Part shown: one piece after another, positions 4,730 through 19,158 of the stretch
How the letters are laid out: each line of letters opens with the position of its first letter
How positions within the stretch are numbered: position 1 is the stretch's first letter
Assembly: GCA_050954785.1 (NCBI GenBank)
Contig: JBPBQO010000146.1
Coordinates: 7,226 to 71,225, forward strand
From: Janthinobacterium lividum
GTDB taxonomy: Bacteria > Pseudomonadota > Alphaproteobacteria > Acetobacterales > Acetobacteraceae
DNA length: 64,000 bases
Direction of reading: 5' to 3'
Notes under the pieces: generated by a model
What the model saw: the letters and a program-made list of their open reading frames with translations, nothing else
What the model was told of the DNA's origin: nothing
Databases searched by the model: none
Position numbers and translations under genes: made by a program

Positions 4730-5497
4730 ATGGTTCGGCAACTCCTGATCCGGGGGATGCTGGTCGGCATCCTCGCGGGTCTGTTCGGGTTCGGGTTCGC
4801 CTGGCTGTTCGGCGAGAAACAGATCGATCTGGCGGTCGCGTTCGAGGATCATGTGCGGCAGTTGGCCGGCGAGGCTCCGGAGCCTGAACTGGTCAGCCGC
4901 GCGGTGCAGAGCACGGTCGGACTGCTGACCGGCATGCTGGTGTATGGCGGCGCGCTGGGCGGCATTCTGTCGCTGGTGTTCGCCTATGTGCAGGGCCGGG
5001 TCGTGCGGCTGAGCCCACGGGCCACGTCCGCGATACTGGGGCTTGCCGGCCTCGTGGTGTTGATCCTGGTGCCGCAGATCAAGTATCCGGCCAACCCGCC
5101 GTCGGTCGGTGATCCGGCGACGATCGGGCTTCGGACCGGGCTGTATTTCGAGATGATCGCGCTGTCGGTGGTGGCGGCCGTGGCCGGCGTCCGTATCGCA
5201 CGGAAACTGCTTTTGCGGTTCGGGCGCTGGAATGCGGTTCTGGCGGGGGTCGGTGTCTACGTGGTGGCGATGGCGGTGACGATGCTGGTGCTGCCGCCGG
5301 TCGACGAGGTGCCGCCGGCGTTCCTGGCCGTCACCTTGTGGCACTTTCGTCTGGCCTCGTTCGGCACCAATATCGTCGTCTGGACGGTGCTCGGTCTCGG
5401 CTTCGGCGCCCTAACCGAACGCTTCCTACAAACGGTTCCCAAAGGCTCCGCCTTTGGCGGGGTCAAGGGGCAGCGCCCCATGCCTTCTTCCTACTGA
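4730..5497 (+). CDS. cbtA: Cobalt transporter subunit CbtA
   Basis: RGMLVGILAG, E.QIDLAVAFE, VSRAVQST.GL, KYPANPPSVG, LWHFRLAS; follows cbtB; last ~20 aa repeat-derived. Confidence 0.9.
   Translation: MVRQLLIRGMLVGILAGLFGFGFAWLFGEKQIDLAVAFEDHVRQLAGEAPEPELVSRAVQSTVGLLTGMLVYGGALGGILSLVFAYVQGRVVRLSPRATSAILGLAGLVVLILVPQIKYPANPPSVGDPATIGLRTGLYFEMIALSVVAAVAGVRIARKLLLRFGRWNAVLAGVGVYVVAMAVTMLVLPPVDEVPPAFLAVTLWHFRLASFGTNIVVWTVLGLGFGALTERFLQTVPKGSAFGGVKGQRPMPSSY
5434..5484. repeat. Half copy of the multi-hairpin repeat, inside the cbtA 3' end
   Basis: GGTTCCCAAAGGCTCCGCCTTTGGCGGGGTCAAGGGGCAGCGCCCCATGCC aligns with 53923-53974. Confidence 0.75.
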
Positions 5498-6060
5498 AGT
5501 TCGGGGACGATCGCCGAAGCCAGCCGGTCCAGCAGCCTGCTCATCGCACTTACCTGAGCCTGACTGTTTTCCGCCACGCCCCCGACCACCAGATGGGCTC
5601 GCCGACGGGCCATGACAGCGGGTGGCCGGGTGGTTTCGATGCTCCAGCTTGCATCCAGCGCCAGGGTTCCGGCCTGATCCGGCTCGAAGCTGGTGATGGT
5701 CAGGTTCAGCCTGCGGAAGTCGGGCTGGATCGGCGAGGTCGTGACAACCGAGGCCTGTGGAAGCCGCGCCTGCAGGTCGGCCGCAATCGCCTGCCGGATC
5801 CCGACCGACAATCGATCGCCCCAGCGTCCGTTGCGGCTGGCCGAGAGTTCGTTGGTGCCGACGCGGCGCAGGATGTCGCGGCTGTCGAGGTGGTCGGGCA
5901 GCAGCACCGGCCGCACCTCGATGACGGTCGTGGACACGGTCTCGATCGATGGCCGCGCAGCGGCGGATACCGGTCCGGTCAGCACGTATGTCCGCAGTTT
6001 GGGCGCGGCGCAGCCGGCGAGCGCAAGTGCCGGGACCAGCATGAACAGGATCGGTTTCAT
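5491..6060 (-). CDS. PqiC-like ABC auxiliary lipoprotein
   Basis: Lipobox LAGC; LPDHLDSRDIL, RWGDRLS.GIR..IAADL. Confidence 0.85.
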   Translation of the reverse strand: MKPILFMLVPALALAGCAAPKLRTYVLTGPVSAAARPSIETVSTTVIEVRPVLLPDHLDSRDILRRVGTNELSASRNGRWGDRLSVGIRQAIAADLQARLPQASVVTTSPIQPDFRRLNLTITSFEPDQAGTLALDASWSIETTRPPAVMARRRAHLVVGGVAENSQAQVSAMSRLLDRLASAIVPELQ

Positions 6061-7025
6061 CGGCTGCGTCCTCGCAGGACCAGGGATGGATCGCTTTCGA
6101 CGTCGCGGGCAATGCCGCGCAGGCTGTCGGCGGCGGCGGCGAGGTCGCGCAGGCTGGTTTCCAGGTTGAGACGCACCTCGGAGCGTTCGCCGGCGACGGC
6201 GTTGATCGTCACCGTAAGCTGTCTCGCATTCTCGGCTGCCTGGTTCGCGGTGGCGATCAGGTGCTTGAGCTCCGGTCCGCGTCCGGCGACCTGATCGTGC
6301 AACTGGAGCGACAGGTCCTGATAGCGATGGAGCGTCGTGAGCGCCTGGTCGCGTACGGCCAGCACGGACTGGTTGATGATCGGGCCGGTATCGTGCAGCC
6401 CGTCCGCGGTCACCTGCAGGCTGGCGATCAGCGGGGGCAGGTTGGTGTCCAGCGTGATGGCGAGATGCTCGATCGCGTGCAGGGTGCGGGTGGTGCTGTC
6501 GGCGAGGTCGCGCAACGGCAGCTTCGGGATCTGCTCGCGCAGCCGTTCGAAGTCGGACTGCACTGTCGGGATCTCGATCAGGCTGCTTTTCAGGCCGGAG
6601 AACACCGCGCCGGAGTTCGGCTTCATGTCGAGGTCGACCGCCATCTGCCCGGTCACGAAACTCTGCATGATGAGCTGGGCGCGGAGGCCCGCTGCAACCA
6701 GCTGGTCCAGGTCGACGCGCTCGGACGCGCTGGCCGGCCGGTCCAGCACCACGCGGCCGGGATCGAGCTGGATCATGACCGGGATTCGCGCTTCCAGATC
6801 GACCGGGTTCACGTGCAGCGAAATGGTCCCGACCGACCCTACGCGCACGCCACGGAACGTGACCGGAGCGCCCGGGGCCAGCCCGCCGACGCCGCCATGG
6901 AAATAGATGACCGCGCGATCGACCGGCGTCAGCAGATGCAGCCGGCCGAACACCAGGATCACCCCCATGCCGAGTGCCAGCCCGACCAGCACGAACAAGC
7001 CGACGAGAGTCTGCCTAGCTGCCAT
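6057..7025 (-). CDS. MlaD/MCE-domain protein
   Basis: N-terminal TM; GL.PGAPVTFRGVRVGSV MCE motif; GLRAQL..QSFVTGQ; helical C-terminus ending PSLVLRG. Confidence 0.9.
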   Translation of the reverse strand: MAARQTLVGLFVLVGLALGMGVILVFGRLHLLTPVDRAVIYFHGGVGGLAPGAPVTFRGVRVGSVGTISLHVNPVDLEARIPVMIQLDPGRVVLDRPASASERVDLDQLVAAGLRAQLIMQSFVTGQMAVDLDMKPNSGAVFSGLKSSLIEIPTVQSDFERLREQIPKLPLRDLADSTTRTLHAIEHLAITLDTNLPPLIASLQVTADGLHDTGPIINQSVLAVRDQALTTLHRYQDLSLQLHDQVAGRGPELKHLIATANQAAENARQLTVTINAVAGERSEVRLNLETSLRDLAAAADSLRGIARDVESDPSLVLRGRSR

Positions 7026-7824
7026 CCGCGTCGCTCCCGTTCGACTGCATCATCGGTGCCTGGCTTTCAGGTGTGCGTTCCCGGTGCATGAAGGCCTGCA
7101 CCGTTGGATGAGCGCAATGGTCGCGCAGCTCGGCAGGCGAGCCGGACGCGATCACGGTATGGGTTTCCGCATCGAGGAATGCGCCATCGTCGGCGATCGC
7201 GAACAGGCTGGGCAGTTCGTGGCTGACCAGCACGATGGTGGTGCCGAGACCTTCGCGCAGCTCCAGGATCAAATCGTCCAGGCGCCGCGAGGTGATCGGG
7301 TCGAGGCCGGCGGAGGGTTCGTCGAAGAACAGCACCTCCGGATCCAGCGCCAGGGCACGGGCCAGGCCGGCGCGCTTGCGCATGCCGCCGCTGAGTTCGG
7401 CCGGCATCAGGTCGGCGGCCGATTCCATACCGACCAGGGCCAGCTTGAGCCGTACCAGGTCGGCGATCGCGGCGGGCTTCTGCCGGGTGAACAGCTTGAG
7501 CGGCAGGGCGACATTCTCGGCCACGGTGAGCGAACTCCAGAGAGCGGAGCTCTGGAACAGCACACCATAGCGACGGTTGATCTCGATACGGCGGTCGTCG
7601 CGTGCGTCCCAGTAGCTTTCGCCATCGATCAGCACCTCGCCGGCGATCGGCCGCAGCAGGCCGAACAGGCCCTTCATGACCGTGCTCTTGCCACAGCCGC
7701 TCCCGCCCATCAGCGCGAAGATGGACCCCTGACGGATACGCAACGCGACATCGCGCTGGATCACCCGGTCGCCGAACGCGAGCGTCAGGCCGCGTGTCTC
7801 GATCTTGAACGGAGCTGCACCCAT
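7015..7824 (-). CDS. MlaF/Mkl-type ABC ATPase
   Basis: GGSGCGKST, LFQSSAL, LSGGMRKR, FFDEPSAGLDP. Confidence 0.92.
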   Translation of the reverse strand: MGAAPFKIETRGLTLAFGDRVIQRDVALRIRQGSIFALMGGSGCGKSTVMKGLFGLLRPIAGEVLIDGESYWDARDDRRIEINRRYGVLFQSSALWSSLTVAENVALPLKLFTRQKPAAIADLVRLKLALVGMESAADLMPAELSGGMRKRAGLARALALDPEVLFFDEPSAGLDPITSRRLDDLILELREGLGTTIVLVSHELPSLFAIADDGAFLDAETHTVIASGSPAELRDHCAHPTVQAFMHRERTPESQAPMMQSNGSDADGS

Positions 7825-7830
7825 CCGGCG

Positions 7831-9039
7831 TCAGAACCCGAACACGTTGGCGACGACCGCGAACAGGGCATCGAGCGCGATGACGCCGACGATCCCGGCC
7901 ACCACCGCACGGGTCGCCGCCTCGCCGACAGCCGCCGCGCTGCGGCCGGCATTGAGGCCGATCTGGCACGAGACGAGGCCGATCAGCGCGGCGAAGGCAA
8001 TGCTCTTCGCCAGCCCGAACCCGAACTGGCTGAGCGGCACCGCATGCGCCACGGCCGTCGCGAAGGCGAGGGGAGACAGGTCGAGCATGGTTGTCGCGAC
8101 CAATGCGCCGCCAGCAATGCCGATCAGGCAGGCATACAGATAGAGCAGCGGCATGGTGAGCATGAGCGAGAGCGTCATCGGCAACACCAGGTACGTCTGT
8201 TCGCTGATGCCGAGCACGCGCAACGCGTCGATTTCCTCGTTGCCCTGCATGGTGGCGAGGCGCGCGGCGTTGGCGCCGCCGGTGCGGCCGGCCAGGACGA
8301 TCGCGGTCATCACCGCCGCGAGTTCGCGCACCAGGGCCAGCCCGACCAGGTTGCTGACGAAGATTTCGGCGGCAAAACGCCTCAGCTCCACTGCGCCGAT
8401 GAAGGCGAGGATCGCGCCCAGCAGGAAATTGACCACGCCCACGATCGGCAAGGCGCTGGGGCCGGCACGCTGCACCGCGTCCAGCAGGTCGGCCCCCTGC
8501 ATGCGGGTGCGGCGGCTGCGCGGCCAGACGCTGCTGACCAGGCCACGGGCCATCTCGCCGACGAGCTGCGCGCCGGCTCCCACCGAGGCGAGCGTGGACA
8601 GGCAGATCTTCCCGATCACGGCGAGCGGGTTCAGCCGCGGGCGGCGAGGGGCCGGAATGGCTGGCGTGCTCGCCGCGAGGGCGAGCAGCCGACGAGCGGA
8701 GGGAGGCAGTCCATCCTCGTCCAGCATCGTGCCGTCCGCCTGCACCAGGCCACGCAGGCGCCACAGCGTCGCGACCAGCAGACTGTCCCAGGCGACCAGC
8801 TCCCGTGCGTCGAAGCTCAGGCGGCGCGGGCTCGCCATAGCGCTGCGAATTGCCGCGGCCTGCACAGTCGGCACGATGTCGGTTGCATGCCGCCAGTCTC
8901 CACCGAACACCAGGACGGCATCGTCGCCTTCCCGGCGAACCTGCCAGAGCGGGTCCGGCTTACCCGGTGGTTTGGACAGAGGCGAACGCGCCAGGGGGCC
9001 GGCTCCTAGCCGGTGCAGCGCTTGAGCCGGGCTCCGCAA
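7831..9039 (-). CDS. MlaE-family permease with N-terminal STAS-like domain (start uncertain: TTG 9039 or CTG 8994)
   Basis: VRELAAVMTAIVLAGRTG...M..NEEIDALRVLG; SAAAVGEAATRAVV. Confidence 0.88.
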   Translation of the reverse strand: MRSPAQALHRLGAGPLARSPLSKPPGKPDPLWQVRREGDDAVLVFGGDWRHATDIVPTVQAAAIRSAMASPRRLSFDARELVAWDSLLVATLWRLRGLVQADGTMLDEDGLPPSARRLLALAASTPAIPAPRRPRLNPLAVIGKICLSTLASVGAGAQLVGEMARGLVSSVWPRSRRTRMQGADLLDAVQRAGPSALPIVGVVNFLLGAILAFIGAVELRRFAAEIFVSNLVGLALVRELAAVMTAIVLAGRTGGANAARLATMQGNEEIDALRVLGISEQTYLVLPMTLSLMLTMPLLYLYACLIGIAGGALVATTMLDLSPLAFATAVAHAVPLSQFGFGLAKSIAFAALIGLVSCQIGLNAGRSAAAVGEAATRAVVAGIVGVIALDALFAVVANVFGF

Positions 9040-10352
9040 GCCGAAAGCTTGTGCGCCAGCCCGTCATAACCCCGGTCGATATGGTCCAGGCCATCGACCA
9101 GGGTAGTGCCGCGCGCGGTCAGTCCGGCAATGACCAGGGCTGCGCCCGCACGCACATCGGTTGCCATGACCGATGCGCCGTCCAGGGCCGGGACGCCGCG
9201 GATCAGTGCGGTCCGGCCGCGCACGGTGATGACCGCCCCCATCCGGCGCAGCTCGTCGACATGCCGGAAGCGGCTCTCGAAGATGGTCTCGGTCACCGTC
9301 CCGGCGCCATCGGCGATGCACAGCAAGGCCATCGTCGGCGCCTGCAGGTCGGTGGCGAAGCCGGGCCACGGCTGTGTCACGACATCGATGCCGATCAATC
9401 CGCCCGCAGCCCGCGCGGCGACCAGGCCTCCGGGCACCTCGCGCAGACTCACGCCGGCCTGTTCGAGCAGCGGGGCGGCGGCACCGAGCAGGCCCAGTGT
9501 GCCGCCTTCGAGCAGGATCTCGCCACCGGTCGCGGCAGCGGCGCAAGCGATCGTGCCGAGCTCGATCCGGTCCGGCATCACCCGGTGCAGCACGCCGCCG
9601 AGAGCGTGCCTGCCCTCGATGGTCAGGGTCGAGCTGCCGGCCCCCTTGATCCGGGCGCCCATGGCGATCAGGCACGCGCACAGATCGACCACTTCCGGCT
9701 CGCGCGCGACATTGCCCAGACGGGTGATGCCGTTGGCCAGGACAGCGGCGAGCAGCAGGTTCTGGGTCGCGCCGACCGACGGGAACTCGAGCTGGATGTC
9801 TGCGCCATGCAGTCCGTCCGGCGCGCGCGCGTCGATGATGCCGTGCTCGAGGGTGATCTCGGCGCCCATGGCCCTGAGGCCGGCCAGATGGAAGTCCACG
9901 GTTCTCAGGCCGATCGAATCGCCGCCGGGCATCGGCATCCTGGCTTCGCCGCACCGTGCCAGCAACGCGCCGAGCAGCAGGATCGAGGCGCGCATGCGCA
10001 TGACCAGTCCTGCCTCGATCTCGCCCGGACGCACGCGATCGGCGCACAGGGTCAGGGAGAGCGGGGCACGCGGATCCCCGTCCGACCATGAGACGCCGAC
10101 CCCGAGCCGGTGCAGCAGCGCGCCGAGGACGGCAACGTCGAGGCTGCGCGGAACGTTCTGTAGCGTCACCAGATGCGGTGTCAGCAGGGCGGAAACCATC
10201 AGCGGCAGTACCGCATTCTTGGCGCCGCTGATCGGATAGCGGCCGGACAAGGGACGGCCGCCCTCGATCGACAGCAGATGGTTCGGGTCCGGCTGCCACC
10301 AGGGCGACGCCTCGGACAGGATACGGGCCGGTGCGGATTGGATCGAGGTCAT
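9006..10352 (-). CDS. murA: UDP-N-acetylglucosamine 1-carboxyvinyltransferase, Cys115Asp variant
   Basis: SGAKNAVLP, MRASILLLG, PGGDSIGLRTVDFH, PGFATDLQA, HIDRGY. Confidence 0.93.
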   Translation of the reverse strand: MTSIQSAPARILSEASPWWQPDPNHLLSIEGGRPLSGRYPISGAKNAVLPLMVSALLTPHLVTLQNVPRSLDVAVLGALLHRLGVGVSWSDGDPRAPLSLTLCADRVRPGEIEAGLVMRMRASILLLGALLARCGEARMPMPGGDSIGLRTVDFHLAGLRAMGAEITLEHGIIDARAPDGLHGADIQLEFPSVGATQNLLLAAVLANGITRLGNVAREPEVVDLCACLIAMGARIKGAGSSTLTIEGRHALGGVLHRVMPDRIELGTIACAAAATGGEILLEGGTLGLLGAAAPLLEQAGVSLREVPGGLVAARAAGGLIGIDVVTQPWPGFATDLQAPTMALLCIADGAGTVTETIFESRFRHVDELRRMGAVITVRGRTALIRGVPALDGASVMATDVRAGAALVIAGLTARGTTLVDGLDHIDRGYDGLAHKLSACGARLKRCTG

Positions 10353-10508
10353 GGCGAGCCGGCTTTCCCATGGCGTTGAGCCAGGATACCAAAAACTCGG
10401 CCAGCCGATACGTCTCAGGCTTCAGAAACTTGGCTATTCTCGCGCTTCGACGATCGCGCGGACTATCGGGCCGGTTGCCTCCGGCGCGGAGTGACGGGAT
10501 GATCGGTC

Positions 10509-11993
10509 ATGAATTTCATACGCTTGCGCAATGACTGGCTCGGCAACGTAAGAGGCGACGTGCTGGCCGGGATGGTCGGGACCTTCGCCCTGATCCCCGA
10601 GGTGATCGCCTTCTCTTTTGTCGCCGGTGTCGATCCGGAGGTCGGGCTGTTCGCCTCGTTCGTGATCGGCACGGTGATCGCCATTACCGGCGGGCGTCCG
10701 GCGATGATCTCGGGCGCCGCTGGCTCGGTGGCGCTGGTTGCCGCGGCGCTGGTGCGCGGCCATGGGCTCGAATACCTGCTTGCGGCCACCCTGCTGGCCG
10801 GCCTGATCCAGATCCTGTTCGGGTTGCTCCGGCTCGACGTGCTGATGCGGTTCGTGTCCCGCTCGGTGCGGACCGGCTTCGTGAACGCGCTGGCGATCCT
10901 GATCTTCTCGGCACAGTTGCCACAGATCGTCGGCCCGAACTGGGGATTCGGCACGCAGTTCGGCTGGCAGAACGACGTGATGATCGCGGCCGGCGTGGCG
11001 CTGATCTACCTGGTACCGCGCTTGTTCACCGCGATCCCGTCGCCGCTGATCTGCGTGGTCGTGCTGACGCTCGTATCCGTGCTGCTGCCGATGCCGCTTC
11101 GCACGGTGGCCGATCTCGGCCGGCTGCCGTCGTCGCTGCCGATGCTGCACTGGCCGACATTGCCGCCGACGCTGGCGACGCTCGGCATCATCGCGCCGTA
11201 CGCGCTGGCGATGGCGGTGGTGGGCCTGCTCGAATCCATGATGACGGCGAGCGTCGTCGACGACCTCACGGAAACCAACAGCGACAAGCGGCGCGAGTGT
11301 ACCGGGCTCGGCATCGCCAACATGGCGGCCGGCCTGTTCGGCGGCATCGCCGGCTGCGGAATGATCGGCCAGACCGTCGGCAACGTGCGCTACGGCGGAC
11401 GCGGACGGCTTTCGACCTTCGTGGCGGGTGCGTTCCTGCTGGTGCTGATGGTGGCGTTGCGGCCCTGGGTGGCGAAGGTGCCGGTGGCGGCACTCGTCGC
11501 CATCATGATCATGGTGTCGATCAGCACCTTCTCGTGGGGCTCGCTGCGCGACCTGGTGGTGCATCCCAAAACCTCCAGCATGGTGATGCTGGTCACCGTC
11601 GCCGTGGTCGTGGCGACCTCGGACCTGGCGATCGGCGTGGTCGTGGGCGTCCTGCTGAGCGGGGTGTTCTTCGCGTTCAAGGTGATGCGGTTGATGGCGG
11701 TCGAGATCGGATACGATGCGGACACCGATACCCGCCTGTATACGGTCCATGGCCAGGTGTTCTTCGCGTCCGCGGACATGTTCGCTGATCGCTTCGACCT
11801 TCGCGATACCGCGCGCGCGGTGCGGATCGATCTGCGGCAGGCGCATCTGTGGGACATCACCGCGGTCGGCGCGCTGGAGTCGGTCGTCACCAAGATGCGG
11901 CGCCATGGCCTGCGCGTCGAACTGGTCGGGCTGAACGAGGCCAGTGCCGGCATGGTCGAGCGGCATGCCGGGCCAGGACTGGATCTTGCATAG
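10509..11993 (+). CDS. SulP-family anion transporter with C-terminal STAS
   Basis: ALIPEVIAFS..AGVDP.VGL, GGRPAMISGA, GC.MIGQT, YTVHGQVFFASAD. Confidence 0.92.
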   Translation: MNFIRLRNDWLGNVRGDVLAGMVGTFALIPEVIAFSFVAGVDPEVGLFASFVIGTVIAITGGRPAMISGAAGSVALVAAALVRGHGLEYLLAATLLAGLIQILFGLLRLDVLMRFVSRSVRTGFVNALAILIFSAQLPQIVGPNWGFGTQFGWQNDVMIAAGVALIYLVPRLFTAIPSPLICVVVLTLVSVLLPMPLRTVADLGRLPSSLPMLHWPTLPPTLATLGIIAPYALAMAVVGLLESMMTASVVDDLTETNSDKRRECTGLGIANMAAGLFGGIAGCGMIGQTVGNVRYGGRGRLSTFVAGAFLLVLMVALRPWVAKVPVAALVAIMIMVSISTFSWGSLRDLVVHPKTSSMVMLVTVAVVVATSDLAIGVVVGVLLSGVFFAFKVMRLMAVEIGYDADTDTRLYTVHGQVFFASADMFADRFDLRDTARAVRIDLRQAHLWDITAVGALESVVTKMRRHGLRVELVGLNEASAGMVERHAGPGLDLA

Positions 11994-12018
11994 CAGTCAG
12001 GCGTAACTCGTCGATATG

Positions 12019-12049
12019 GGGGGTGTCCCGGGTTGCCGGCGACACCTTC
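12019..12049 (+). terminator. GC hairpin after sulP, possible terminator
   Basis: GGTGTC-CCGG-GTTG-CCGG-C-GACACC followed by TTCT; weak U-tract. Confidence 0.4.
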
Positions 12050-12446
12050 TGTCCGAACGCTGGATGCCGGATGGACAGCCCTGAACGCAGTCCAGCAAAA
12101 CAATACTTAAAGTTGATGAAGACCGGCATCCACTACCCTTGTCGGAGGCCAAGGCCGGCACGCCGCTGATTTCAGATCGGCAAGTATTAATGGAAGTAAA
12201 CGATTGGCTGCATATTTCCAGTTCGAGTATCGGTATTGAAACGATTTTAATTATCGTCTCAAATTTGAGCAATTGTGCAGTGCACCTAATCAAGTTTGTA
12301 CAAAAGCGTTTCTTGACTTACAGCGCAGGAGGATCCAGATGATCGTGCGCACCCGAACCTAGAGAAAAGTCTCTTAAAAGTCGGAAATGGCGTTGGCAGT
12401 CGAGCCATCTATCAATTCGACAAAGCGATATTTCGGACGAACGCCC

Positions 12447-12644
12447 ATGAACCGTATGCTTGTCGGCAATTCCCTGGCTACTTTCGGCGCCGCCACGATT
12501 ACTCCGGATCGACGCGTGTCCGCGGCAGCGGCAAACCATGCCACCAACGGTTTTTTTCGTGGCATCGTGTTCGGATTCGTCGCCGTGGTTCCATTCTGGA
12601 CCGGGCTGATCTGGCTTGGACTCAGACTGTTCAATCACGGGTAA
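12447..12644 (+). CDS. 65-aa hypothetical membrane protein
   Basis: C-terminal hydrophobic stretch GFFRGIVFGFVAVVPFWTGLIWLGLRLF; start uncertain. Confidence 0.5.
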   Translation: MNRMLVGNSLATFGAATITPDRRVSAAAANHATNGFFRGIVFGFVAVVPFWTGLIWLGLRLFNHG

Positions 12645-12698
12645 CGACGACGTGCCTCGATAATTTAAGGCACCTCGTCGCCAAGTCCTGGCGACGGA

Positions 12699-13706
12699 TC
12701 AGTGGGCTGCGGATCGACTAAGGTAGGGCAGCAGGACTGTCATTTGAGCACGATCGCGTCCATGGTCCGGCTCCAGAGTGAACATGTAGTTTCCCCAGAG
12801 GGGGCCGGCTGCCCAGTACGTCCACCCGAGCCATTCTTTGGAATTGGCCTTCATGAAGGCCACCACGTGGTCCAGGACCGCGGCGCATTCCGGCCGGCGA
12901 CTGACGCCGAACTCGCCGAGAAATCCTTGCTGATGGTGAGCGTGCAGCCATTGCGTGACCGAGGTCAGTCTCCGCACGGCTTCATCCGGGGCGACACACG
13001 TATCCTTGGTCCCCGACGAGTCCCGGTCGAAATACTGATGGACCTCGAACACCATGCGATGCCGTGGATCCTTTAATCCGGCGAGCGCATCACCGTTGAG
13101 AGAGGCAAAGTTGTGGGCACCGTCCCAGCCTACCCCCGACACGAGAATACGGTTGTTCGAACCGGTGCGCCGGATGCCGTCGATTGCCTGCTGCTGGATG
13201 TTCTTCCAGAGAAGGGGGTCCGGGATTTGAGGCTCGTTCATCAAACCGAACAGCACGCTGTCGTCACGGCCGAAGCGCCCGGCCAGCTTGACCCAGAGAT
13301 CCGTGAACGCCGATGCCGTCACGTCGCCGGTGCCGATCTGAACGCCGCGATAGCGGCCGTAATCATGGATGTCGATGATGGTAGAGGCGCCGTGCTGGCG
13401 TATGATCTCGATCAGATCGGCAAGCCGCGTCAGCTCCTTGGCATCGAGCGGACCGAGAAGTTCGGGCTGTAGGCGCGACCACAGCACCGAGATCCGAAAG
13501 ACGTTCATGCCTTTCCGGGTGAAGTAGGTCACTTCCTCCGCCTTCGGGTAAAGATAGTCTTTCCCGTAGATCCCGGGCACCTTCGAAGATGCGAAGCCCG
13601 CACCGGCCAGATTGACGCCCTTGAGGTCCTGGGCGTGGCCGCATGGCGTGCCAAAGGCGCACATCGCCAGGGTAGCCCATCCCGCGACGGTCCCCATCTT
13701 TTTCAT
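12699..13706 (-). CDS. GH5 endoglucanase-like glycoside hydrolase #1
   Basis: Signal peptide, GVNLAGAGF, W.RLQP, DIHDYGRY, LMNEP (acid/base), FLGEFG (nucleophile), WTYWAAGP; start overlaps the wzy stop as ATGA. Confidence 0.92.
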   Translation of the reverse strand: MKKMGTVAGWATLAMCAFGTPCGHAQDLKGVNLAGAGFASSKVPGIYGKDYLYPKAEEVTYFTRKGMNVFRISVLWSRLQPELLGPLDAKELTRLADLIEIIRQHGASTIIDIHDYGRYRGVQIGTGDVTASAFTDLWVKLAGRFGRDDSVLFGLMNEPQIPDPLLWKNIQQQAIDGIRRTGSNNRILVSGVGWDGAHNFASLNGDALAGLKDPRHRMVFEVHQYFDRDSSGTKDTCVAPDEAVRRLTSVTQWLHAHHQQGFLGEFGVSRRPECAAVLDHVVAFMKANSKEWLGWTYWAAGPLWGNYMFTLEPDHGRDRAQMTVLLPYLSRSAAH

Positions 13707-14995
13707 GCGAGGCTGCCCTGGATCGCGGGGCGAGTGAACCGTTGCAAGCTCGGCATGGAGCGTGCGCGCGCCTTTACCGCCTGCGTCGCCGGGCAGTTCG
13801 CCACGCCATACAGGAACCAGAGAAGAGCCGCTGTCTTGATCGTGAAGATCGACGCTCCGATGCACAAGGACGTCGACAGGTAGACCGCGATCATGACCTT
13901 CATGGATGTCGCTTCCATCCGTACGGATCGATTGAAGGCGAACAGTGCCAGGAACATCAGGGTCAGCGGCAGGCCCATATTGTTCACGACATACGCATAT
14001 CCGGTGTCCGCAGTATAAACCTGGGACGGCAACATGGCGAACCATTGCGGCAGGTGCCAGTAGTTGAGAAGCCGGCTGGAGAACAGGAGCCGTCCCGAAA
14101 GATTGTCGATCATGATGGCTGGAACGACACCCTTCAACTCGTTCAGCGAGCCGACCAGGGTCAGTCCCACCATCACCACGAGCGGCATCACGAACACTGC
14201 GATACGGGACCGAACCAGTGGCGTCAAACGCACGAGCAGCATCGCCGTGCAGCATCCGCCGGCGAAGCGACTATCGGCGATGATCACGCAAAGTACGGAG
14301 AGCGCCAGCAACCAGCCTCTGCTTCGCCGCGATCCATTGGTCGTGGTTATGCACCACGCAAACATGATGGCAGCGTAGTTACCGAGTGAATCCGGCTCGA
14401 GAAAGATCGACGAGACACGATGCGATCCCAGCAGCGTGGGGAAGAAGGTGCGGGACAGTGCACCGCGATCGCCACTGAGATAGAGGTTCGTGCCGCTGTA
14501 ATTCACCGTGCCTGGGGCGATCACACCCTTGTCGACGTAGTACGACCAGACGTCGAAAATCTCGCCGAACGTCGGTGTGAACAGCAGCTCGAAGAACCCG
14601 ACTGCGAGAACAATCGCCATCAGTGTCCAGACCAGGCGACTGGCCTGACGCGGAGTGGCCATCCTGCCTAGTTTGTAGAAAATGTACATGATCCCGAGGT
14701 CATGCAGGATTTTCAGGTTCACCTCGGAATTGATCAGCTTCATGCCGACCATGAACAGGACGCTCATGACAAGAAGCTGTTTTACCCACAGCGCCACATC
14801 GTTTCGGATAGCGATGATGCCGATCAGCAGGATCAGAAGCTCCGTGGCGACGATCGGAAGACTTCCGATTGGCGCCCAGCCACGCGTCTTGATGAAGCAC
14901 AGCACCATGTTGAACATCATGGATGCGATGATCAGCCACGACCCAAGGTCCAGGCTCTGGCCTCTGTTCGCTGATCGTGCTCGGCTGGCAGGCAT
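13703..14995 (-). CDS. Polysaccharide polymerase (Wzy, GumE-like)
   Basis: Polytopic membrane protein with RVSSIFLEPDSLGNY and DTGYAY motifs; AAGGAG SD. Confidence 0.75.
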   Translation of the reverse strand: MPASRARSANRGQSLDLGSWLIIASMMFNMVLCFIKTRGWAPIGSLPIVATELLILLIGIIAIRNDVALWVKQLLVMSVLFMVGMKLINSEVNLKILHDLGIMYIFYKLGRMATPRQASRLVWTLMAIVLAVGFFELLFTPTFGEIFDVWSYYVDKGVIAPGTVNYSGTNLYLSGDRGALSRTFFPTLLGSHRVSSIFLEPDSLGNYAAIMFAWCITTTNGSRRSRGWLLALSVLCVIIADSRFAGGCCTAMLLVRLTPLVRSRIAVFVMPLVVMVGLTLVGSLNELKGVVPAIMIDNLSGRLLFSSRLLNYWHLPQWFAMLPSQVYTADTGYAYVVNNMGLPLTLMFLALFAFNRSVRMEATSMKVMIAVYLSTSLCIGASIFTIKTAALLWFLYGVANCPATQAVKARARSMPSLQRFTRPAIQGSLA

Positions 14996-15598
14996 TCATC
15001 CTCTCCTTATAGAGATGTTCGGCACGCGTTTTCGGACAGGAGTGCAATCCAGCAGACTCGGCGCGGGCCGCTTCCCGCCCGATCGTTCCCAATCGTCCGG
15101 CAGACCGCCATGGCCGATCCGCCGGCCAGTCCGGCGCGTATCATCACGCACTGGGGCCTCGATACGGCGATGGGTGTGACCGGACAGTGGGATCATGAGT
15201 TGCCATGGCTGGTTGAACGAAAGCGATGCGGGACATGTTCGGGCTGCTTGCGTCTGCAGGCGGGCTTAACGTACTGGTCAGCCTTGTGAATACCATGCTG
15301 GCAACCGGAAGGCGCTGCAAATATGCACGGTGCGGCCGTTCGCCATGCGAATCGGCGACCTCGGCGTCGGCCGATACGGTCGGGTCACGGCGGGTATCCT
15401 GGACCAGCACCAGGGGCGTCATTGTTGCCAATGACGATACGCGGATGTTCGCGCAACGGAGGTGACGTGTCCCAAGACTGAAATCCTCCAACGTTACGAT
15501 CATGTGCAGGTTGCCAATCATTACAAAATTTAAAGAAACGTTCGCTAGGTAATATGCTGTTGTAGCGATCAGCAGGCAGTCCTGAATAAAGTTGCTCG

Positions 15599-15613
15599 TT
15601 AAATCACAGTTAA
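15599..15613. promoter_or_regulatory. Candidate CtrA box
   Basis: Exact TTAA-ATCACAG-TTAA (TTAA-N7-TTAA) in the divergent wzy/gumK intergenic region. Confidence 0.4.
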
Positions 15614-15858
15614 ACCGTGTGATCTGTTCTTCCGATGCGTAGTATGCGACGTCAGAAGCTCGATTGCGCCACGATCGTCAAGTATGGCTTGACGATTCCA
15701 TGCTTGGTGCTAGCTGAATAAACAGGCTGTGAACGTGGCTATCTTGATGAATGTCCTCATTGTAGAGATAATCAGATGCGCCTGATATGTGAAGAGTGGA
15801 AGACAACGTGATCAATACGGATGCAAGATTTACTGATGAAGGGTAATGGTATCATTCC

Positions 15859-16965
15859 ATGCTCAACTCCCTAGTCATATCAGTTCATGATTTCCGCAGC
15901 CTTCGCAAAGCGAGTGTTCATTTTATCACGGGCGAACTCGTGCATCGGGGCCCCACACGGTTTTTCTCGATCGGCATGTCCCGCCTCTCGATGCGTCGCG
16001 GCGACACACGTGCCAACCTCGACGGACGCTCGAACCGGGTCGAACGGTATGAAGGCGTCGATTGCTACCTGTGGAAGAAAGCCTGGCATCCGTTCAACAC
16101 GCGCCGCAGGCAGCTCGCCATGCTGGAATCAGCCATGTTCAGCTTATACCGGCTGGTCCTGCCATCCGTTCCGAGGCAATGGGTACGCGAGGCCGACATC
16201 GTGTTTATCGAGTCCGGTCTCGCCGCCATCTTCGTCGCGGATGTCAAGCGGATCAACCCGGCTGCCAGGATCGTCTATCTTGCATCGGACGATCTCGACG
16301 TCGTGGATTGCGCGCCGACCATCAAGCGAGATTTCGCGAAAAACTTCGACAGCATCGACACCGTGAGGCTTCCCTCGCGTTTCCTGGCCAGTGGCATGCC
16401 GCACACGCGAAGCTCCATCTTCGTTCCGCATGGTATCGACCGCGACATGGCCACCAAGCGCTATCCAAATCCATACAAGGGTCGTTTGGCGGCGGTTTCG
16501 GTCGGTTCGATGCTGTTCGATGCCTCCTTCTTCACCGAGGCCGCGTCGCTGTTTCCCGATATCGACTTCCATGTGATCGGTGCAGGCAAAGCGGCGGCAT
16601 CTCTTGCCGGGACCAACATCATCGTCCATCCGGAACTGGCATTCGTGGAAACACTCGGCTACCTGCAGCACGCCGCATTCGGTATCGCGCCGTATCGCGA
16701 CGCGGAAACGCCGCGCTATCTGATCGACACCTCCCTCAAGCTTCGTCAGTTCGCGTTGTTCGGCATCCCGGCGGTGTGCCCCTATTTCGCTCTCGGGACC
16801 GAGGCCGGCCGCTTCGGCTATCTGCCGGGGGATGCCGAATCCATCCGCGCTGCGATTACGGCCGCCCTGGCGAACCAGGTGCCGATCGTCGACGCATCGT
16901 TCTCCTGGGCGGAGGTCGTCGAACGGATCCTCGAGCCGCAGGCCTATCCGGACACGAGGCTATGA
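15859..16965 (+). CDS. gumK: GumK-like beta-1,2-glucuronosyltransferase (GT70)
   Basis: HDFR..RKA.VHFIT, GVDCYLW, HPFNTRR, VGSMLFD, FGIAPY, SLKL.QF..FGIPAVCP, C-terminal PQAYPDTRL, matching Xanthomonas GumK from memory. Confidence 0.9.
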   Translation: MLNSLVISVHDFRSLRKASVHFITGELVHRGPTRFFSIGMSRLSMRRGDTRANLDGRSNRVERYEGVDCYLWKKAWHPFNTRRRQLAMLESAMFSLYRLVLPSVPRQWVREADIVFIESGLAAIFVADVKRINPAARIVYLASDDLDVVDCAPTIKRDFAKNFDSIDTVRLPSRFLASGMPHTRSSIFVPHGIDRDMATKRYPNPYKGRLAAVSVGSMLFDASFFTEAASLFPDIDFHVIGAGKAAASLAGTNIIVHPELAFVETLGYLQHAAFGIAPYRDAETPRYLIDTSLKLRQFALFGIPAVCPYFALGTEAGRFGYLPGDAESIRAAITAALANQVPIVDASFSWAEVVERILEPQAYPDTRL

Positions 16966-16993
16966 TCGCATCCGCTCGCATGGTGGCCGTCGC

Positions 16994-18172
16994 ATGACGA
17001 CCCAATCGGCTCCATCGCGCCCTGTGGTCGCGATCTACCGGACGGAGGTGCTCCCGCTGTCCGAGACGTTCGTTCGGGACCAGGCATTGGCGCTCCGACG
17101 CTGGCAGCCGATCCTTGTCGGCGAGCGACAGATCGACGCGTTGCCGCTGTCCGGTCTGGCAGTCTCCACCTGCCATTCCGGACCGGCAACCTTGGCCCAG
17201 CGTCTCGCAAGCCTGGCCTGGCGCCGGCTCGGACGTCCGTCGCCGTCGATGGTCGCTCTGGTCAGGCGCGCGGCGCCCAACCTGATCCATGCGCATTTCG
17301 GCTTCGACGGCGTCGAGGCCTGGCCGATCGCCCGGCGCCTCGGCCTGCCGCTCCTGGTCACGCTGCACGGATCCGACATCACGACGACGATGGACTGGTT
17401 CACCTCGGGCCGAGCCGGGCGACGCTGGGCGGCCTATCCGTCGCGTCTCGCCCAGATCGCCACGCAGCGCCAGGTCAGTTTCGTCGCCATTTCGGAAAAC
17501 ATCCGCCGCGCGGCGCTCGATGCCGGGCTCCCGCCGGAAAGGATTTTCGTGGAACGGATCGGCGTGAACACCAGCGGGTTCGCACCGGGCGGACTGCCGA
17601 TCGCCAGGCGTCAGCCGCTCATCCTGTTCCTGGGTCGGCTTGTCGAAAAGAAAGGCTGCAGCTTCCTGATCGAATCCTTCAAGACTCTCCGCCGAGACGT
17701 GCCTGGTTGTCAGCTGGTCATCGCCGGCGACGGGCCCTTGCGAGCGGAACTGGAAGCTCAGGCAGCCGGCCTCGACGGGGTGCGGTTTGCCGGCAGCGTG
17801 TCCCACGATCAGGTCCGGGCGCTCATGCAGCAGGCTCGTGTGTTCTGCCTGCCGAGCATCACGGCAGCGAGTGGCGATGCCGAGGGGCTGCCGCTGGTGA
17901 TATTGGAAGCACAGGCCAGCGGCGTGCCGGTCGTTACCTCCGCGCGTGGTGGGGCCGAGGAAGGGATACGTGATGGCCAGACCGGGCTCGCATTCGCCGA
18001 GCGCGACGTTGCCGCCATGACCAGGCATCTGGTGAGCGTGCTGAGCGACGACGCGCTTGCCACACGCATGTCCGAGGCTGCTCCCGGCTTCATTGCCGCC
18101 GAGCACGACCTCCTGAAATGTACCGAGCGGCTGGAACGCGTTTACGATGTCGTCGCCAGGACCCGGTCGTGA
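16994..18172 (+). CDS. GT4 glycosyltransferase
   Basis: LPLSETFV, HAHFG, TLHGSD, GRLVEKKG, AEGLPLVILEAQASG. Confidence 0.9.
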   Translation: MTTQSAPSRPVVAIYRTEVLPLSETFVRDQALALRRWQPILVGERQIDALPLSGLAVSTCHSGPATLAQRLASLAWRRLGRPSPSMVALVRRAAPNLIHAHFGFDGVEAWPIARRLGLPLLVTLHGSDITTTMDWFTSGRAGRRWAAYPSRLAQIATQRQVSFVAISENIRRAALDAGLPPERIFVERIGVNTSGFAPGGLPIARRQPLILFLGRLVEKKGCSFLIESFKTLRRDVPGCQLVIAGDGPLRAELEAQAAGLDGVRFAGSVSHDQVRALMQQARVFCLPSITAASGDAEGLPLVILEAQASGVPVVTSARGGAEEGIRDGQTGLAFAERDVAAMTRHLVSVLSDDALATRMSEAAPGFIAAEHDLLKCTERLERVYDVVARTRS

Positions 18173-19134
18173 CCGATCTCGACAGCGTCGCGGTCATTAT
18201 CCCGACCTTCAATGCGCAAGCCTTCATGATCCGTGCGATCAAGTCGGTGCAGGCACAGACGCGTCCGGCCAGTGAGATCATTATCGTCGACGATTGCTCG
18301 ACCGACGATACGCGAGCGATCCTCGACCGGATCGCGGGCGAGGATCCCCGGATCCGGATCGTCCACATGCCGCGTAATGGCGGACCGTCCGCCGCACGGA
18401 ACGCCGGTATCAAACTTGCGACAAGCCGATGGATCGCGATCCTGGATGCCGACGATGCCTTTGCTCCGCAACGGCTGGCCGAACTGGTGCCGTTTGCCGT
18501 CGACACGAACGCGGATATCGCGACCGATAACCTCGCCCTCTACGATGCCCAGGCCAAGCTGGTTACCGGCACCGGACTGGCGGATGGCGTCGTCGTTCCC
18601 GACTGCCCGATTGGCTTGCGCGACTTTCTCGATCACAACCGTGCCGACGGAAAAAGCTTCGACTGGGGTTTGCTCAAACCCCTGTTCAGGCGGCAGGTCC
18701 TGGTTGATCGCGCCGTGTTTTACAACCCGGAAGTCCGCCATGGCGAAGATTTTCAACTTGCGGTCGAGTTATTGTTGGCCGGCGCAACGTTCAGAATTCT
18801 GAACCGTCCGCTTTATCTCTATACACAGCGTCAGGGCGCCGTCAGCGGACGCGCCTCGGGCATGACGCGCACGACGGTCGCGTATGGCACCATGAGGGAT
18901 GCCGCACTCAAGATGAGCCGGGATGAGCGGCTGACATCGGATCCGGAGCTCGTCGAGCTGCTGCGGATCAGGGCTCATGGGCTTGGGCGTCTCGATGACG
19001 CCGATTTCGTGTCGAGGGCCGTGCACGGTGGCCAGATCGGGCGGATCGTGCAGCGGTGCATGCGCGACCCGGCCTTCTTCCCGCGGATGCTGCGTCAGAT
19101 CGGCGCCGCGCTTCGACGACGGCTCCCGTTCTGA
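18169..19134 (+). CDS. GT2 glycosyltransferase (ExoO/AceP-like)
   Basis: IIP.FNA, VDDCSTD, NGGPSAARN, LDADD, GLLKP, GEDF; GTG start overlaps the upstream TGA. Confidence 0.88.
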   Translation: MTDLDSVAVIIPTFNAQAFMIRAIKSVQAQTRPASEIIIVDDCSTDDTRAILDRIAGEDPRIRIVHMPRNGGPSAARNAGIKLATSRWIAILDADDAFAPQRLAELVPFAVDTNADIATDNLALYDAQAKLVTGTGLADGVVVPDCPIGLRDFLDHNRADGKSFDWGLLKPLFRRQVLVDRAVFYNPEVRHGEDFQLAVELLLAGATFRILNRPLYLYTQRQGAVSGRASGMTRTTVAYGTMRDAALKMSRDERLTSDPELVELLRIRAHGLGRLDDADFVSRAVHGGQIGRIVQRCMRDPAFFPRMLRQIGAALRRRLPF

Positions 19135-19158
19135 CGCAGCGACGCGGGCCCTTCCTGC

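What the first reader, a model, noticed from the sequence alone, without database searches (positions are those of the whole stretch)
9906..9935. MurA carries Asp at the fosfomycin-target Cys115
Seen: the loop reads MPGGDSIGLRT (codon GAT at 9918-9920, minus strand) where E. coli has LPGGCTIGARP. K22, R91, R120, D305 and R397 equivalents are intact. Known: Cys-to-Asp MurA (as in Mycobacterium tuberculosis and Chlamydia) stays active but cannot be alkylated by fosfomycin; the fungal metabolite terreic acid also attacks Cys115. Inference: a naturally resistant MurA in an environmental alphaproteobacterium.
Basis: partly seen in the sequence, partly recalled or inferred. Interest (0 to 1): 0.65.

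Follow-up and report, generated by a model that had tools for sequence, protein, structure and literature searches.

The report
Spare cysteine-free MurA cell-wall enzyme
This lichen-associated bacterium has, besides its normal cell-wall enzyme MurA, a second, well-conserved copy in which the cysteine attacked by the antibiotic fosfomycin is replaced by aspartate.

Summary
The ORF at 9006-10352 (minus strand, 448 aa) is a MurA. Its loop reads PMPGGDSIGLRT, and Asp145 (GAT, 9920-9918) aligns with E. coli Cys115. All other catalytic and substrate-binding residues are intact.

The interpretation needs correcting. The same genome, a Lichenicola species (Acetobacteraceae) close to L. cladoniae, also has a canonical Cys-MurA (VSLPGGCAIGTRPVD) on another contig. 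The two proteins are 53% identical.

- **Clade.** The window gene belongs to a well-supported, all-Asp clade of accessory MurAs. Its signatures are C115D, P99A, P121G/T, P303A, L370V and a roughly 22-aa N-terminal extension with an invariant PW(W) motif.
- **Distribution.** The clade is patchy: 2 of 22 genomes in the genus and 7 of 301 in the family. It sat beside a Cys-MurA in all 9 genomes that could be assessed. It has no conserved gene neighbourhood.
- **Selection.** dN/dS is 0.056, so the gene is under purifying selection.
- **Local context.** The gene lies at the edge of a ~31-kb variable segment and overlaps the start of an mlaE-mlaF-mlaD-pqiC operon. That linkage is specific to this lineage.
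- **Wider picture.** Asp at this site is common and arose several times (17 of the 146 nearest MurA cluster representatives whose loop could be read).

Best reading: a fosfomycin- and thiol-reagent-insensitive back-up isozyme. This is a new variant of a known kind, of moderate interest. No biochemistry was done.

The parts
9006..10352 (-). murA2: accessory Asp-type UDP-GlcNAc 1-carboxyvinyltransferase, 448 aa
   Evidence: ORF. TIGR01072 scores 480.7 bits against a cut-off of 392.7. PF00275. PDB MurA hits down to E = 4.5e-105. AlphaFold2 pLDDT 92.9. Foldseek TM 0.88-0.96 to MurA crystal structures. dN/dS 0.056 against L. cladoniae.
9918..9920 (-). GAT codon for Asp145, the equivalent of E. coli Cys115 (the residue fosfomycin alkylates)
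   Evidence: Sequence. Alignments. Asp in 119 of the 120 nearest homologues.
9900..9935 (-). Active-site loop P-M-P-G-G-D-S-I-G-L-R-T. R150 (= R120) is at 9903-9905. T151 replaces the conserved P121 at 9900-9902.
   Evidence: The clade consensus is PMPGGDAIGLRG. P121 is Pro in 118 of 128 Cys-type MurAs and Gly in 110 of 120 clade members.
10278..10352 (-). Clade-specific N-terminal extension (residues 1-25), absent from canonical MurA. The P17-W18-W19 motif is at 10296-10304.
   Evidence: P17 and W18 are invariant and W19 is at least 90% conserved in 48 clade members. The AlphaFold2 model shows a helix at residues 7-15, with block pLDDT of 87 for residues 11-20.
7831..9039 (-). mlaE-family permease. 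Its only standard in-frame start (TTG at 9039) overlaps the 3' end of murA2 by 34 nt, so the two genes are probably co-transcribed.
   Evidence: PF02405, 4.3e-60. Junction sequence. No terminator found.
5491..7824 (-). mlaF-like ABC ATPase (7015-7824), MlaD/MCE protein (6057-7025) and PqiC-type auxiliary lipoprotein (5491-6060): the rest of the downstream operon.
   Evidence: Pfam hits. The same four-gene operon occurs without murA2 in congeners.
10509..11993 (+). Divergently transcribed SulP-family anion permease with a STAS domain. Like murA2, it is present only in this lineage.
   Evidence: Pfam. Absent next to the mla operon in G018, G007 and G006.
9040..40020 (.). Variable segment of about 31 kb that congeners G018 and G006 lack. 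It holds murA2 and sulP (GC about 0.69), a low-GC exopolysaccharide cluster (about 12-36.8 kb), and a metal ATPase, CsoR-type repressor and SMR pump.
   Evidence: In G018 and G006 the DNA upstream of mlaE continues directly into the homologue of window ~40022-45198. GC profile. Pfam annotation.

Best explanation
murA2 encodes a working UDP-GlcNAc enolpyruvyl transferase in which Asp145 takes over the general-acid and product-release role of Cys115.

- **Insensitivity to inhibitors.** With no thiol in the active-site loop, the enzyme cannot be alkylated by fosfomycin or by other Cys115-directed electrophiles, and the active-site residue cannot be oxidised. It also cannot form the covalent Cys-PEP adduct.
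- **Role in the cell.** The enzyme is an accessory isozyme beside the housekeeping Cys-MurA. It would keep UDP-MurNAc synthesis going when the housekeeping enzyme is blocked, that is, target-bypass resistance.
- **In this genome.** The gene was gained in the common ancestor of this species and L. cladoniae. It sits at the edge of a variable region and is probably co-transcribed with an Mla-type lipid-transport operon.

Shown here: enzyme family, fold, the complete set of catalytic and substrate-binding residues, the Asp, accessory status, purifying selection, clade membership and patchy distribution.

Inferred: catalytic activity, drug insensitivity, the back-up role and expression.
For: - **It is a MurA.** It passes the equivalog model, and the predicted fold superposes on MurA structures, including the E. 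cloacae and C. difficile Cys-to-Asp mutants (3v4t, 6q0a).
- **Active site.** K22, N23, R91, R120, S162-V163-G164, E188, D305, R331, D369, R371 and R397 are invariant in 120 clade members.
- **Asp is fixed, not a sporadic mutation.** 119 of the 120 nearest homologues have it, and the clade is all-Asp with 99% local support.
- **Accessory status.** A canonical Cys-MurA is present in the same genome and in all 9 clade-carrying genomes that could be assessed.
- **Patchy distribution.** 2 of 22 genomes in the genus, 7 of 301 in the family and about 1 of 400 in the class.
- **Under selection.** dN/dS is 0.056, against 0.036 for murA1 and 0.05 for neighbouring genes.
- **A second PEP-site change.** L370 is Val or Ile in 119 of 120 clade members. 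L370I in E. coli MurA has been linked to reduced fosfomycin susceptibility (PMC4790336).
- **Precedent.** E. coli C115D is fully active and fosfomycin-insensitive, and natural Asp-MurAs confer intrinsic resistance (PMC4790336).
Against: - No activity, MIC or expression data exist.
- No genome was found in which a clade member is the only MurA, so there is no genetic proof that it can carry peptidoglycan synthesis alone.
- The clade has extra changes of unknown effect: the N-terminal extension, P99A, P121G/T and P303A.
- No GlpT/UhpT-type fosfomycin importer scored above the family cut-off in this genome, so fosfomycin itself may not be the selective agent.
- No promoter-like site was detected upstream.
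Confidence: 0.6

Rival explanations
1. A regulatory or physiological isozyme rather than a resistance device. Without Cys115 the enzyme cannot form the Cys-PEP adduct that accompanies the UDP-MurNAc-locked 'dormant complex', so it would escape feedback inhibition. Alternatively, it could be tuned to a more acidic cytoplasm, because Asp must be protonated to act as the general acid.
For: The dormant complex contains the Cys-PEP adduct plus UDP-MurNAc (PMC9975281; PMC9995270). The host family is largely acidophilic or acid-tolerant, and clade hosts include Acidisoma. The lack of any conserved neighbourhood fits a general metabolic role.
Against: C. difficile C116D was crystallised with UDP-MurNAc bound (6q0a), so loss of Cys does not by itself abolish binding of the feedback ligand. 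Many clade hosts, such as Roseomonas, Reyranella and Allostella, are not known to me as acidophiles (my own knowledge). Only 2% of the family carries the gene.
Confidence: 0.15
2. A neofunctionalised enolpyruvyl transferase acting on a substrate other than UDP-GlcNAc. Candidates are a nucleotide sugar for the adjacent exopolysaccharide cluster, a NikO-like reaction, or shikimate-3-phosphate as reported for bryophyte MurA.
For: The gene lies at the edge of a gum/acetan-like EPS island. MurA-family enzymes with other substrates exist: NikO (4fqd) and bryophyte MurA making EPSP (PMC11588093). The clade has its own N-terminal extension and loop changes.
Against: All UDP-GlcNAc-contacting residues are invariant. 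The protein scores above the MurA equivalog cut-off. It matches NikO only at 98 bits, against 278-355 bits for MurAs. The EPS genes have a different GC content. Seven other clade members are not next to polysaccharide or biosynthetic clusters.
Confidence: 0.08
3. Part of an envelope-coordination module. On this reading MurA2 is co-expressed with the Mla/Pqi-type lipid transporter to couple peptidoglycan synthesis to outer-membrane homeostasis, perhaps through LpxC as shown for P. aeruginosa MurA.
For: The mlaE start overlaps the murA2 stop by 34 nt and there is no terminator. MurA binds and activates LpxC in Pseudomonas and in some Rhodospirillales (PMC9995270). An earlier first-reader note made the same proposal.
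Against: The linkage exists only in this species and L. cladoniae. Thirteen other congeners have an mlaE homologue but no murA2, and the full mlaEFD-pqiC operon was confirmed without murA2 in the three examined. Seven other clade members have unrelated neighbours.
Confidence: 0.07
4. A self-resistance gene protecting the producer of an endogenous phosphonate or PEP-analogue antibiotic.
For: The genome encodes a genuine PEP mutase: TIGR02320 scores 392 bits against a cut-off of 319.55.
Against: pepM is present in 20 of 22 congeners, whereas murA2 is in 2 of 22. PepM is fused to a nucleotidyltransferase domain, an arrangement I know (from my own knowledge) from cell-surface phosphonate decoration. 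It lies on another contig. No biosynthetic cluster flanks murA2 in any of the 8 contexts examined.
Confidence: 0.03

Closest known systems
[quoted passage not shown]
   Same: Asp replaces the fosfomycin-alkylated Cys in an otherwise complete MurA active site, and the fold is the same. By analogy the enzyme should be active and fosfomycin-insensitive (PMC4790336).
   Different: Those natural enzymes are described as their organisms' intrinsic MurA (PMC4790336); that each is the only MurA in its genome is my own understanding and was not checked here. Here the Asp enzyme is an extra copy beside a Cys-MurA. The clade also carries an N-terminal PWW extension and P99A, P121G/T, P303A and L370V. Asp arose independently at least six times in the tree, so the resemblance is likely convergent. 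Those three sequences were not placed in the tree.
MurA1/MurA2 (MurAA/MurAB or MurZ) paralog pairs of Firmicutes
   Same: Two MurA-family enzymes in one genome with overlapping function (PMC12077105).
   Different: As far as I know, both Firmicute paralogs normally keep the catalytic Cys and are fosfomycin-sensitive; this was not checked here. The window protein scores below the cut-off of the second MurA model NF009470 (396.5 against 552 bits); I take this to be the MurAB/MurZ-type model but did not confirm that. This pair is in a Gram-negative alphaproteobacterium and the second copy is rare in the family (2%).
Target-replacement resistance genes (my general knowledge: mecA/PBP2a, sul1/sul2, dfrA)
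   Same: An extra, drug-insensitive copy of an essential target enzyme with a patchy distribution, located in a variable genome region.
   Different: No mobility genes, tRNA or plasmid link were found next to murA2. Codon-position GC matches the host. Resistance has not been demonstrated.

Membership tests
MurA (UDP-N-acetylglucosamine 1-carboxyvinyltransferase, TIGR01072 equivalog) | Whole-protein score above the curated equivalog cut-off | tested here: met
   480.7 bits against a cut-off of 392.7. NF006873 scores 503.2 against 297.
MurA (UDP-N-acetylglucosamine 1-carboxyvinyltransferase, TIGR01072 equivalog) | Two-domain inside-out alpha/beta barrel fold of enolpyruvyl transferases | tested here: met
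   AlphaFold2 pLDDT 92.9 and pTM 0.92. Foldseek TM 0.88-0.96 and rmsd 1.6-2.8 Å to more than 40 MurA chains.
MurA (UDP-N-acetylglucosamine 1-carboxyvinyltransferase, TIGR01072 equivalog) | Catalytic and substrate-binding residues K22, N23, R91, R120, S162-G164, D305, D369, R371 and R397 | tested here: met
   All are present in the window protein and invariant in 120 clade members.
MurA (UDP-N-acetylglucosamine 1-carboxyvinyltransferase, TIGR01072 equivalog) | Cys115 in the mobile loop | tested here: not met
   Asp145. This exception is known to be compatible with activity (PMC4790336).
MurA (UDP-N-acetylglucosamine 1-carboxyvinyltransferase, TIGR01072 equivalog) | Enolpyruvyl transfer from PEP to UDP-GlcNAc | not testable with these tools
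   Needs an enzyme assay or complementation.
Intrinsically fosfomycin-resistant Asp-MurA (M. tuberculosis / Chlamydia / Borrelia type) | Asp at the Cys115 position | tested here: met
Intrinsically fosfomycin-resistant Asp-MurA (M. tuberculosis / Chlamydia / Borrelia type) | It is the organism's only (essential) MurA, so the organism is intrinsically resistant | tested here: not met
   A canonical Cys-MurA is on contig C43. The same holds in 9 of 9 assessable clade-carrying genomes.
Intrinsically fosfomycin-resistant Asp-MurA (M. tuberculosis / Chlamydia / Borrelia type) | Enzyme not inactivated by fosfomycin; expression raises the MIC | not testable with these tools
   Needs biochemistry or MIC measurement.
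Firmicute-type second MurA (MurAB/MurZ; NF009470 assumed to be its model) | Score above the equivalog cut-off; catalytic Cys retained | tested here: not met
   396.5 bits against a cut-off of 552. Asp rather than Cys.
NikO-type enolpyruvyl-UMP transferase | Closer to NikO than to MurA; located in a nucleoside-antibiotic cluster | tested here: not met
   98 bits to NikO against 278-355 bits to MurAs. No such cluster nearby.

The most novel reading that the evidence does not exclude
The PWW-extension Asp-MurA clade is a distinct, so far uncharacterised class of accessory MurA in Alphaproteobacteria. On this reading it was kept because it is immune to both thiol-directed inhibition and Cys-dependent regulation, so it acts as a stress-proof second entry into peptidoglycan synthesis. 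It would also be an environmental reservoir of target-replacement fosfomycin resistance, a mechanism I did not find described in the papers searched.
Probability: 0.25. Interest if true: 0.55.

Novelty: new variant of a known kind. Interest (0 to 1): 0.4.

Why it matters
Fosfomycin resistance is usually attributed to loss of uptake, to Fos enzymes, or, in a few organisms, to an intrinsically Asp-type MurA. This finding shows a conserved clade of extra Asp-MurA genes that coexist with a normal Cys-MurA and are scattered among soil and lichen Alphaproteobacteria. If active, they are a natural example of target bypass for MurA.

That matters in three ways:
- Resistome surveys that flag any Asp-MurA as an 'intrinsic murA' should distinguish sole from accessory copies.
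- The design of covalent Cys115-directed MurA inhibitors would need to take such enzymes into account.
- It raises the question of why most bacteria keep a vulnerable cysteine at this position.

The clade-specific changes (N-terminal PWW extension, P99A, P121G, P303A, L370V) suggest what may accompany a stable Cys-to-Asp switch.

It does not change the basic picture. Asp-MurA is a known and, as shown here, common natural variant.

Tried and rejected
1. **The organism's only MurA.** Rejected: a canonical Cys-MurA is on contig C43.
2. **A conserved murA-mla envelope module.** Rejected as a general feature. Thirteen congeners have an mlaE homologue but no murA2; the full operon without murA2 was confirmed in three of them. 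Seven other clade members have unrelated neighbours.
3. **Self-resistance to an endogenous phosphonate.** pepM is nearly genus-wide (20 of 22), whereas murA2 is in 2 of 22.
4. **Acquired together with the EPS island.** Unresolved, leaning against. murA2 and sulP have host-like GC (0.69; GC3 0.85-0.89), whereas the EPS genes are at 0.47-0.62. No tRNA was found, and none of the scanned ORFs had an integrase or transposase domain; several island ORFs were not scanned.
5. **Search for a genome where a clade member is the sole MurA,** which would prove function. None was found. G392, a single-copy genome with a 57% hit, turned out to have Cys.
6. **Regulatory elements upstream.** No Rfam hit, sigma-70-like promoter or terminator in 8800-10800.
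8. **Pattern-based genome-contig scan.** It retrieved mostly canonical MurAs, and only two Acidisoma genomes from the clade, because the patterns chosen were peculiar to this lineage. It was not a useful survey.
9. **Literature searches.** They found no description of an accessory Asp-MurA paralog in Alphaproteobacteria. The library lacks most subscription-journal papers, so this is absence in the papers searched only.
10. **Equivalents of the PaMurA LpxC-interface residues G58 and E406.** I compared them by eye. MurA1 keeps Glu at the E406 position and MurA2 has Ala. This is too weak to use.
Full report
**Observation**

The window holds a 448-aa ORF on the minus strand at 9006-10352. The minus-strand sequence around the finding reads ATG CCG ATG CCC GGC GGC GAT TCG ATC GGC CTG AGA ACC, which translates to MPMPGGDSIGLRT. 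GAT is at 9920-9918 and is codon 145.

The protein is a MurA by every sequence test:
- TIGR01072 (murA equivalog) scores 480.7 bits against a cut-off of 392.7, and NF006873 scores 503.2 bits.
- Pfam gives PF00275.
- Thirty-two distinct MurA sequences in the PDB match at E = 1e-81 to 1e-105.

The HMMER alignment to P. aeruginosa MurA (5bq2) puts Asp145 opposite the Cys of LPGGCAIGSRP. A MAFFT alignment with E. coli MurA gives these equivalences: D145 = C115, K45 = K22, N46 = N23, R121 = R91, R150 = R120, S192-V193-G194 = S162-V163-G164, E218 = E188, D335 = D305, R361 = R331, D399 = D369, R401 = R371 and R427 = R397.

No other cysteine lies in the mobile loop. The nearest is C134 (E. coli F104), in the preceding helix.

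A search of the window's own assembly with the MurA model finds two full-length genes above the cut-off. One is on contig C43 (551 bits) and the other is the window gene (480 bits). A third, weak hit at 50 bits over the whole model is most likely AroA, the other enolpyruvyl transferase; I did not confirm this.

The C43 protein is a textbook MurA of 420 aa with the loop VSLPGGCAIGTRPVD. It is 53% identical to the window protein. I call the window gene murA2.

Among 21 other genomes of the same genus, only G010 has murA2, at 96% identity. The other congeners show one MurA hit of about 53% identity, or two fragments of one gene in G002. G010 is Lichenicola cladoniae, a lichen-associated member of the Acetobacteraceae.

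**murA2 belongs to a large, conserved, all-Asp clade**

The 120 best hits in the 5.8-billion-protein collection are 66-96% identical and about 440-450 aa long. Of these, 119 have Asp in the loop, with consensus P[ML]PGGDAIGLRG[IV]. Named sources include Roseomonas, Pseudoroseomonas, Rhodovastum, Allostella, Reyranella, Vineibacter and Hyphomicrobiaceae, and Acidisoma.

I built a FastTree of 168 MurAs: 16 clade members, the nearest 50%-identity cluster representatives of at least 400 aa, and canonical copies from four clade-carrying genomes. In it:
- The window protein sits in an all-Asp clade of 19 rows with 99% local support.
- That clade is separate from the clade holding the canonical alphaproteobacterial MurAs, which includes the genome's own MurA1.
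- The tree needs at least 6 to 9 changes between Cys and Asp.

Of the 146 nearest representatives whose loop could be read, 129 have Cys and 17 have Asp. Asp at this position is therefore a common natural state with several independent origins. Five other first-reader notes from other genomes describe the same substitution.

**Clade signatures**

I compared 120 clade members with 128 Cys-type representatives. Only four columns are at least 90% fixed in the clade and at least 75% fixed to a different residue in the Cys set: P99A, C115D, P121G (Thr in the window protein) and P303A. Just below that threshold are L370V/I, A119L and L124F.

L370I in E. coli MurA has been associated with reduced fosfomycin susceptibility (PMC4790336).

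The clade also has an N-terminal extension of about 22 residues that canonical MurAs lack. Its motif is A-[AS]-P-W-W-[QR]-P. P17 and W18 are invariant, and W19 is at least 90% conserved, in 48 aligned members.

AlphaFold2 on that alignment gives mean pLDDT 92.9 and pTM 0.92. It predicts a helix at residues 7-15 in the extension and, as expected for MurA, a low-confidence loop at 146-149. Foldseek superposes the model on MurA structures with TM 0.88-0.96, including E. cloacae C115D and C. difficile C116D. NikO and AroA are clearly more distant.

**Always an extra copy, rare, and with no fixed neighbours**

A canonical Cys-MurA, identical in the 15-residue window around the loop (VSLPGGCAIGTRPVD), is present in every clade-carrying genome that could be assessed. 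These are G000, L. cladoniae, Allostella vacuolata, Rhodovastum atsumiense and five further Acetobacteraceae genomes, 9 of 9 in total. In a tenth genome, G427, the second copy is a contig-end fragment without the loop.

Prevalence is low:
- 7 of 301 Acetobacteraceae genomes, in 6 of 118 genera. Apart from this 4.45-Mb genome, all are large (5.3-7.4 Mb).
- About 1 of 400 in an even sample of the class. One further genome there, G207, carries a different Asp lineage beside a Cys copy.

Gene neighbourhoods of seven clade members from different organisms share nothing with each other or with the window.

The gene is under purifying selection. Between the window and L. cladoniae, dN/dS is 0.056 for murA2, 0.036 for murA1, 0.051 for sulP and 0.055 for mlaD.

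**Local setting**

The murA2 stop codon (TAG, 9008-9006) lies inside the mlaE-family ORF. That ORF's only standard in-frame start is TTG at 9039, and no terminator-like site follows. Downstream on the same strand are an ABC ATPase, an MlaD/MCE protein and a PqiC-type lipoprotein. Co-transcription is therefore likely here.

The linkage is recent, however. Thirteen other congeners have an mlaE homologue at 67-83% identity. In the three examined, the whole four-gene operon is there without murA2 or sulP.

In G018 and G006, the DNA upstream of mlaE runs straight into the homologue of window ~40022-45198, which encodes an AlkB-like oxygenase and DAHP synthase. Window ~9040-40020 is thus an indel of about 31 kb. 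It contains:
- murA2 and a divergent SulP permease (GC about 0.69, GC3 0.85-0.89).
- A low-GC (0.47-0.62) Wzx/Wzy-type exopolysaccharide cluster with three GH5 enzymes, GumK, GT4 and GT2 transferases, a flippase, UDP-glucose dehydrogenase, a priming transferase, a Wzz-kinase and an exporter.
- A PhyH-family oxygenase, a heavy-metal P-type ATPase, a CsoR-type repressor and an SMR pump.

No tRNA gene was found, and no integrase domain in the ORFs scanned. L. cladoniae is collinear over at least window 1268-22805.

**How it most likely works**

Established knowledge (review PMC4790336):
- Fosfomycin inactivates MurA by alkylating Cys115.
- E. coli C115D is fully active and insensitive.
- The natural Asp enzymes of M. 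tuberculosis, C. trachomatis and B. burgdorferi confer intrinsic resistance, and reverting Asp to Cys restores sensitivity.

murA2 keeps every other catalytic and UDP-GlcNAc-binding residue, has the MurA fold and is under selection. The best-supported reading is therefore a working UDP-GlcNAc enolpyruvyl transferase that cannot be hit at the loop thiol.

Because it is always an extra copy and is patchily distributed, its role is most simply a back-up or bypass for the housekeeping Cys enzyme. It would be useful against fosfomycin-like or other thiol-reactive inhibitors, or against oxidants. I put this at 0.6 overall. The enzymology by analogy is more secure, at about 0.8. The physiological role is less so, at about 0.4.

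What argues for caution:
- There are no functional data.
- No genome has a clade member as its only MurA.
- No GlpT/UhpT-type importer scores above the family cut-off in this genome, so fosfomycin may not be the natural selective agent.

**Rivals**

- **Feedback-escape or pH-specialised isozyme (0.15).** The UDP-MurNAc 'dormant complex' includes the Cys-PEP adduct. However, a C116D enzyme was still crystallised with UDP-MurNAc (6q0a).
- **New substrate (0.08).** Argued against by the invariant UDP-GlcNAc site and the equivalog score.
- **Envelope-coordination module with Mla, or an LpxC partner (0.07).** The overlap with mlaE and the MurA-LpxC precedent (PMC9995270) are suggestive, but the linkage is confined to two species.
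- **Self-resistance to an endogenous phosphonate (0.03).** A true PEP mutase exists, but it is present in 20 of 22 congeners, is fused to a nucleotidyltransferase domain and lies on another contig.

**Comparison with what is known, and novelty**

murA2 works like the known Asp-type MurAs but fails one feature of that group: it is not the organism's only MurA. It resembles the Firmicute MurA1/MurA2 arrangement in having two copies. As far as I know, both Firmicute copies keep Cys, and the window protein does not reach the cut-off of the second MurA model NF009470.

I found no description of an accessory Asp-MurA clade in Alphaproteobacteria in the papers searched. That library lacks most subscription-journal papers.

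I rate this a new variant of a known kind, with interest 0.4. The substitution itself is well known and common. The conserved accessory clade, with its own signatures, is the part worth a bench test.

**Limits**

- The tree is a FastTree with local support values only.
- The prevalence figures come from evenly drawn samples, not a full census.

Noticed in passing
window 12000-36800: Low-GC (0.47-0.62) Wzx/Wzy-type exopolysaccharide cluster resembling gum/acetan loci. It holds three GH5 cellulase-family genes (12699-14255, 21336-23144, 24724-25887), GumK (15859-16965), a GT4 (16832-18172), a GT2 (18118-19134), a flippase (19159-20826), UDP-glucose dehydrogenase (23200-24567), a priming transferase (27330-28925), a Wzz/kinase (29807-32005), a second GT4 (32015-33166) and a Poly_export protein (34667-35281). 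It is part of a ~31-kb segment that congeners G018 and G006 lack.
   Followed up: partly
window 36811-39871: Heavy-metal P-type ATPase with YHS and HMBD domains (36811-39237, minus strand), a CsoR-type metal repressor (39204-39515) and an SMR small multidrug pump (39539-39871). They lie at the right end of the same variable segment and have host-like GC.
   Followed up: no
G000 contig C45:187-1986 (outside the window): A 599-aa fusion of PEP mutase and an NTP-transferase domain, scoring above the PEP-mutase cut-off. It is present in 20 of 22 genomes of the genus, so phosphonate biosynthesis is a near genus-wide trait. The fusion suggests cell-surface phosphonate decoration, from my own knowledge.
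   Followed up: partly
window 7831-9039 (minus strand): The MlaE-family permease has an N-terminal region of about 185 residues with no Pfam match. Its only standard start codon (TTG at 9039) lies inside murA2. Homologues in congeners align only from about residue 12-36.
   Followed up: no
G207 (loci L147 and L148): An unrelated alphaproteobacterial genome also has two MurAs. One has Cys (VAMPGGCTIGARPID) and one has Asp (VALPGGDAIGSRPVD). The Asp copy lacks the PWW extension and keeps P121. This is a second, independent case of an accessory Asp-MurA.
   Followed up: partly
L146 (G392), L065, L067: Some Cys-type alphaproteobacterial MurAs already carry Ala at the P303 position (GFATDLQ). P303A also occurs in 46% of other Asp lineages. 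P303A is therefore not exclusive to Asp enzymes, but it may make the Cys-to-Asp switch easier.
   Followed up: no
window 1868-3460 (+) and 4730-5497 (+): A Cpn60/GroEL-family gene and a CbtA cobalt-transporter subunit lie left of the mla operon. Long antisense ORFs overlap both, as is usual in high-GC DNA. The longest-ORF list is misleading in this region.
   Followed up: no
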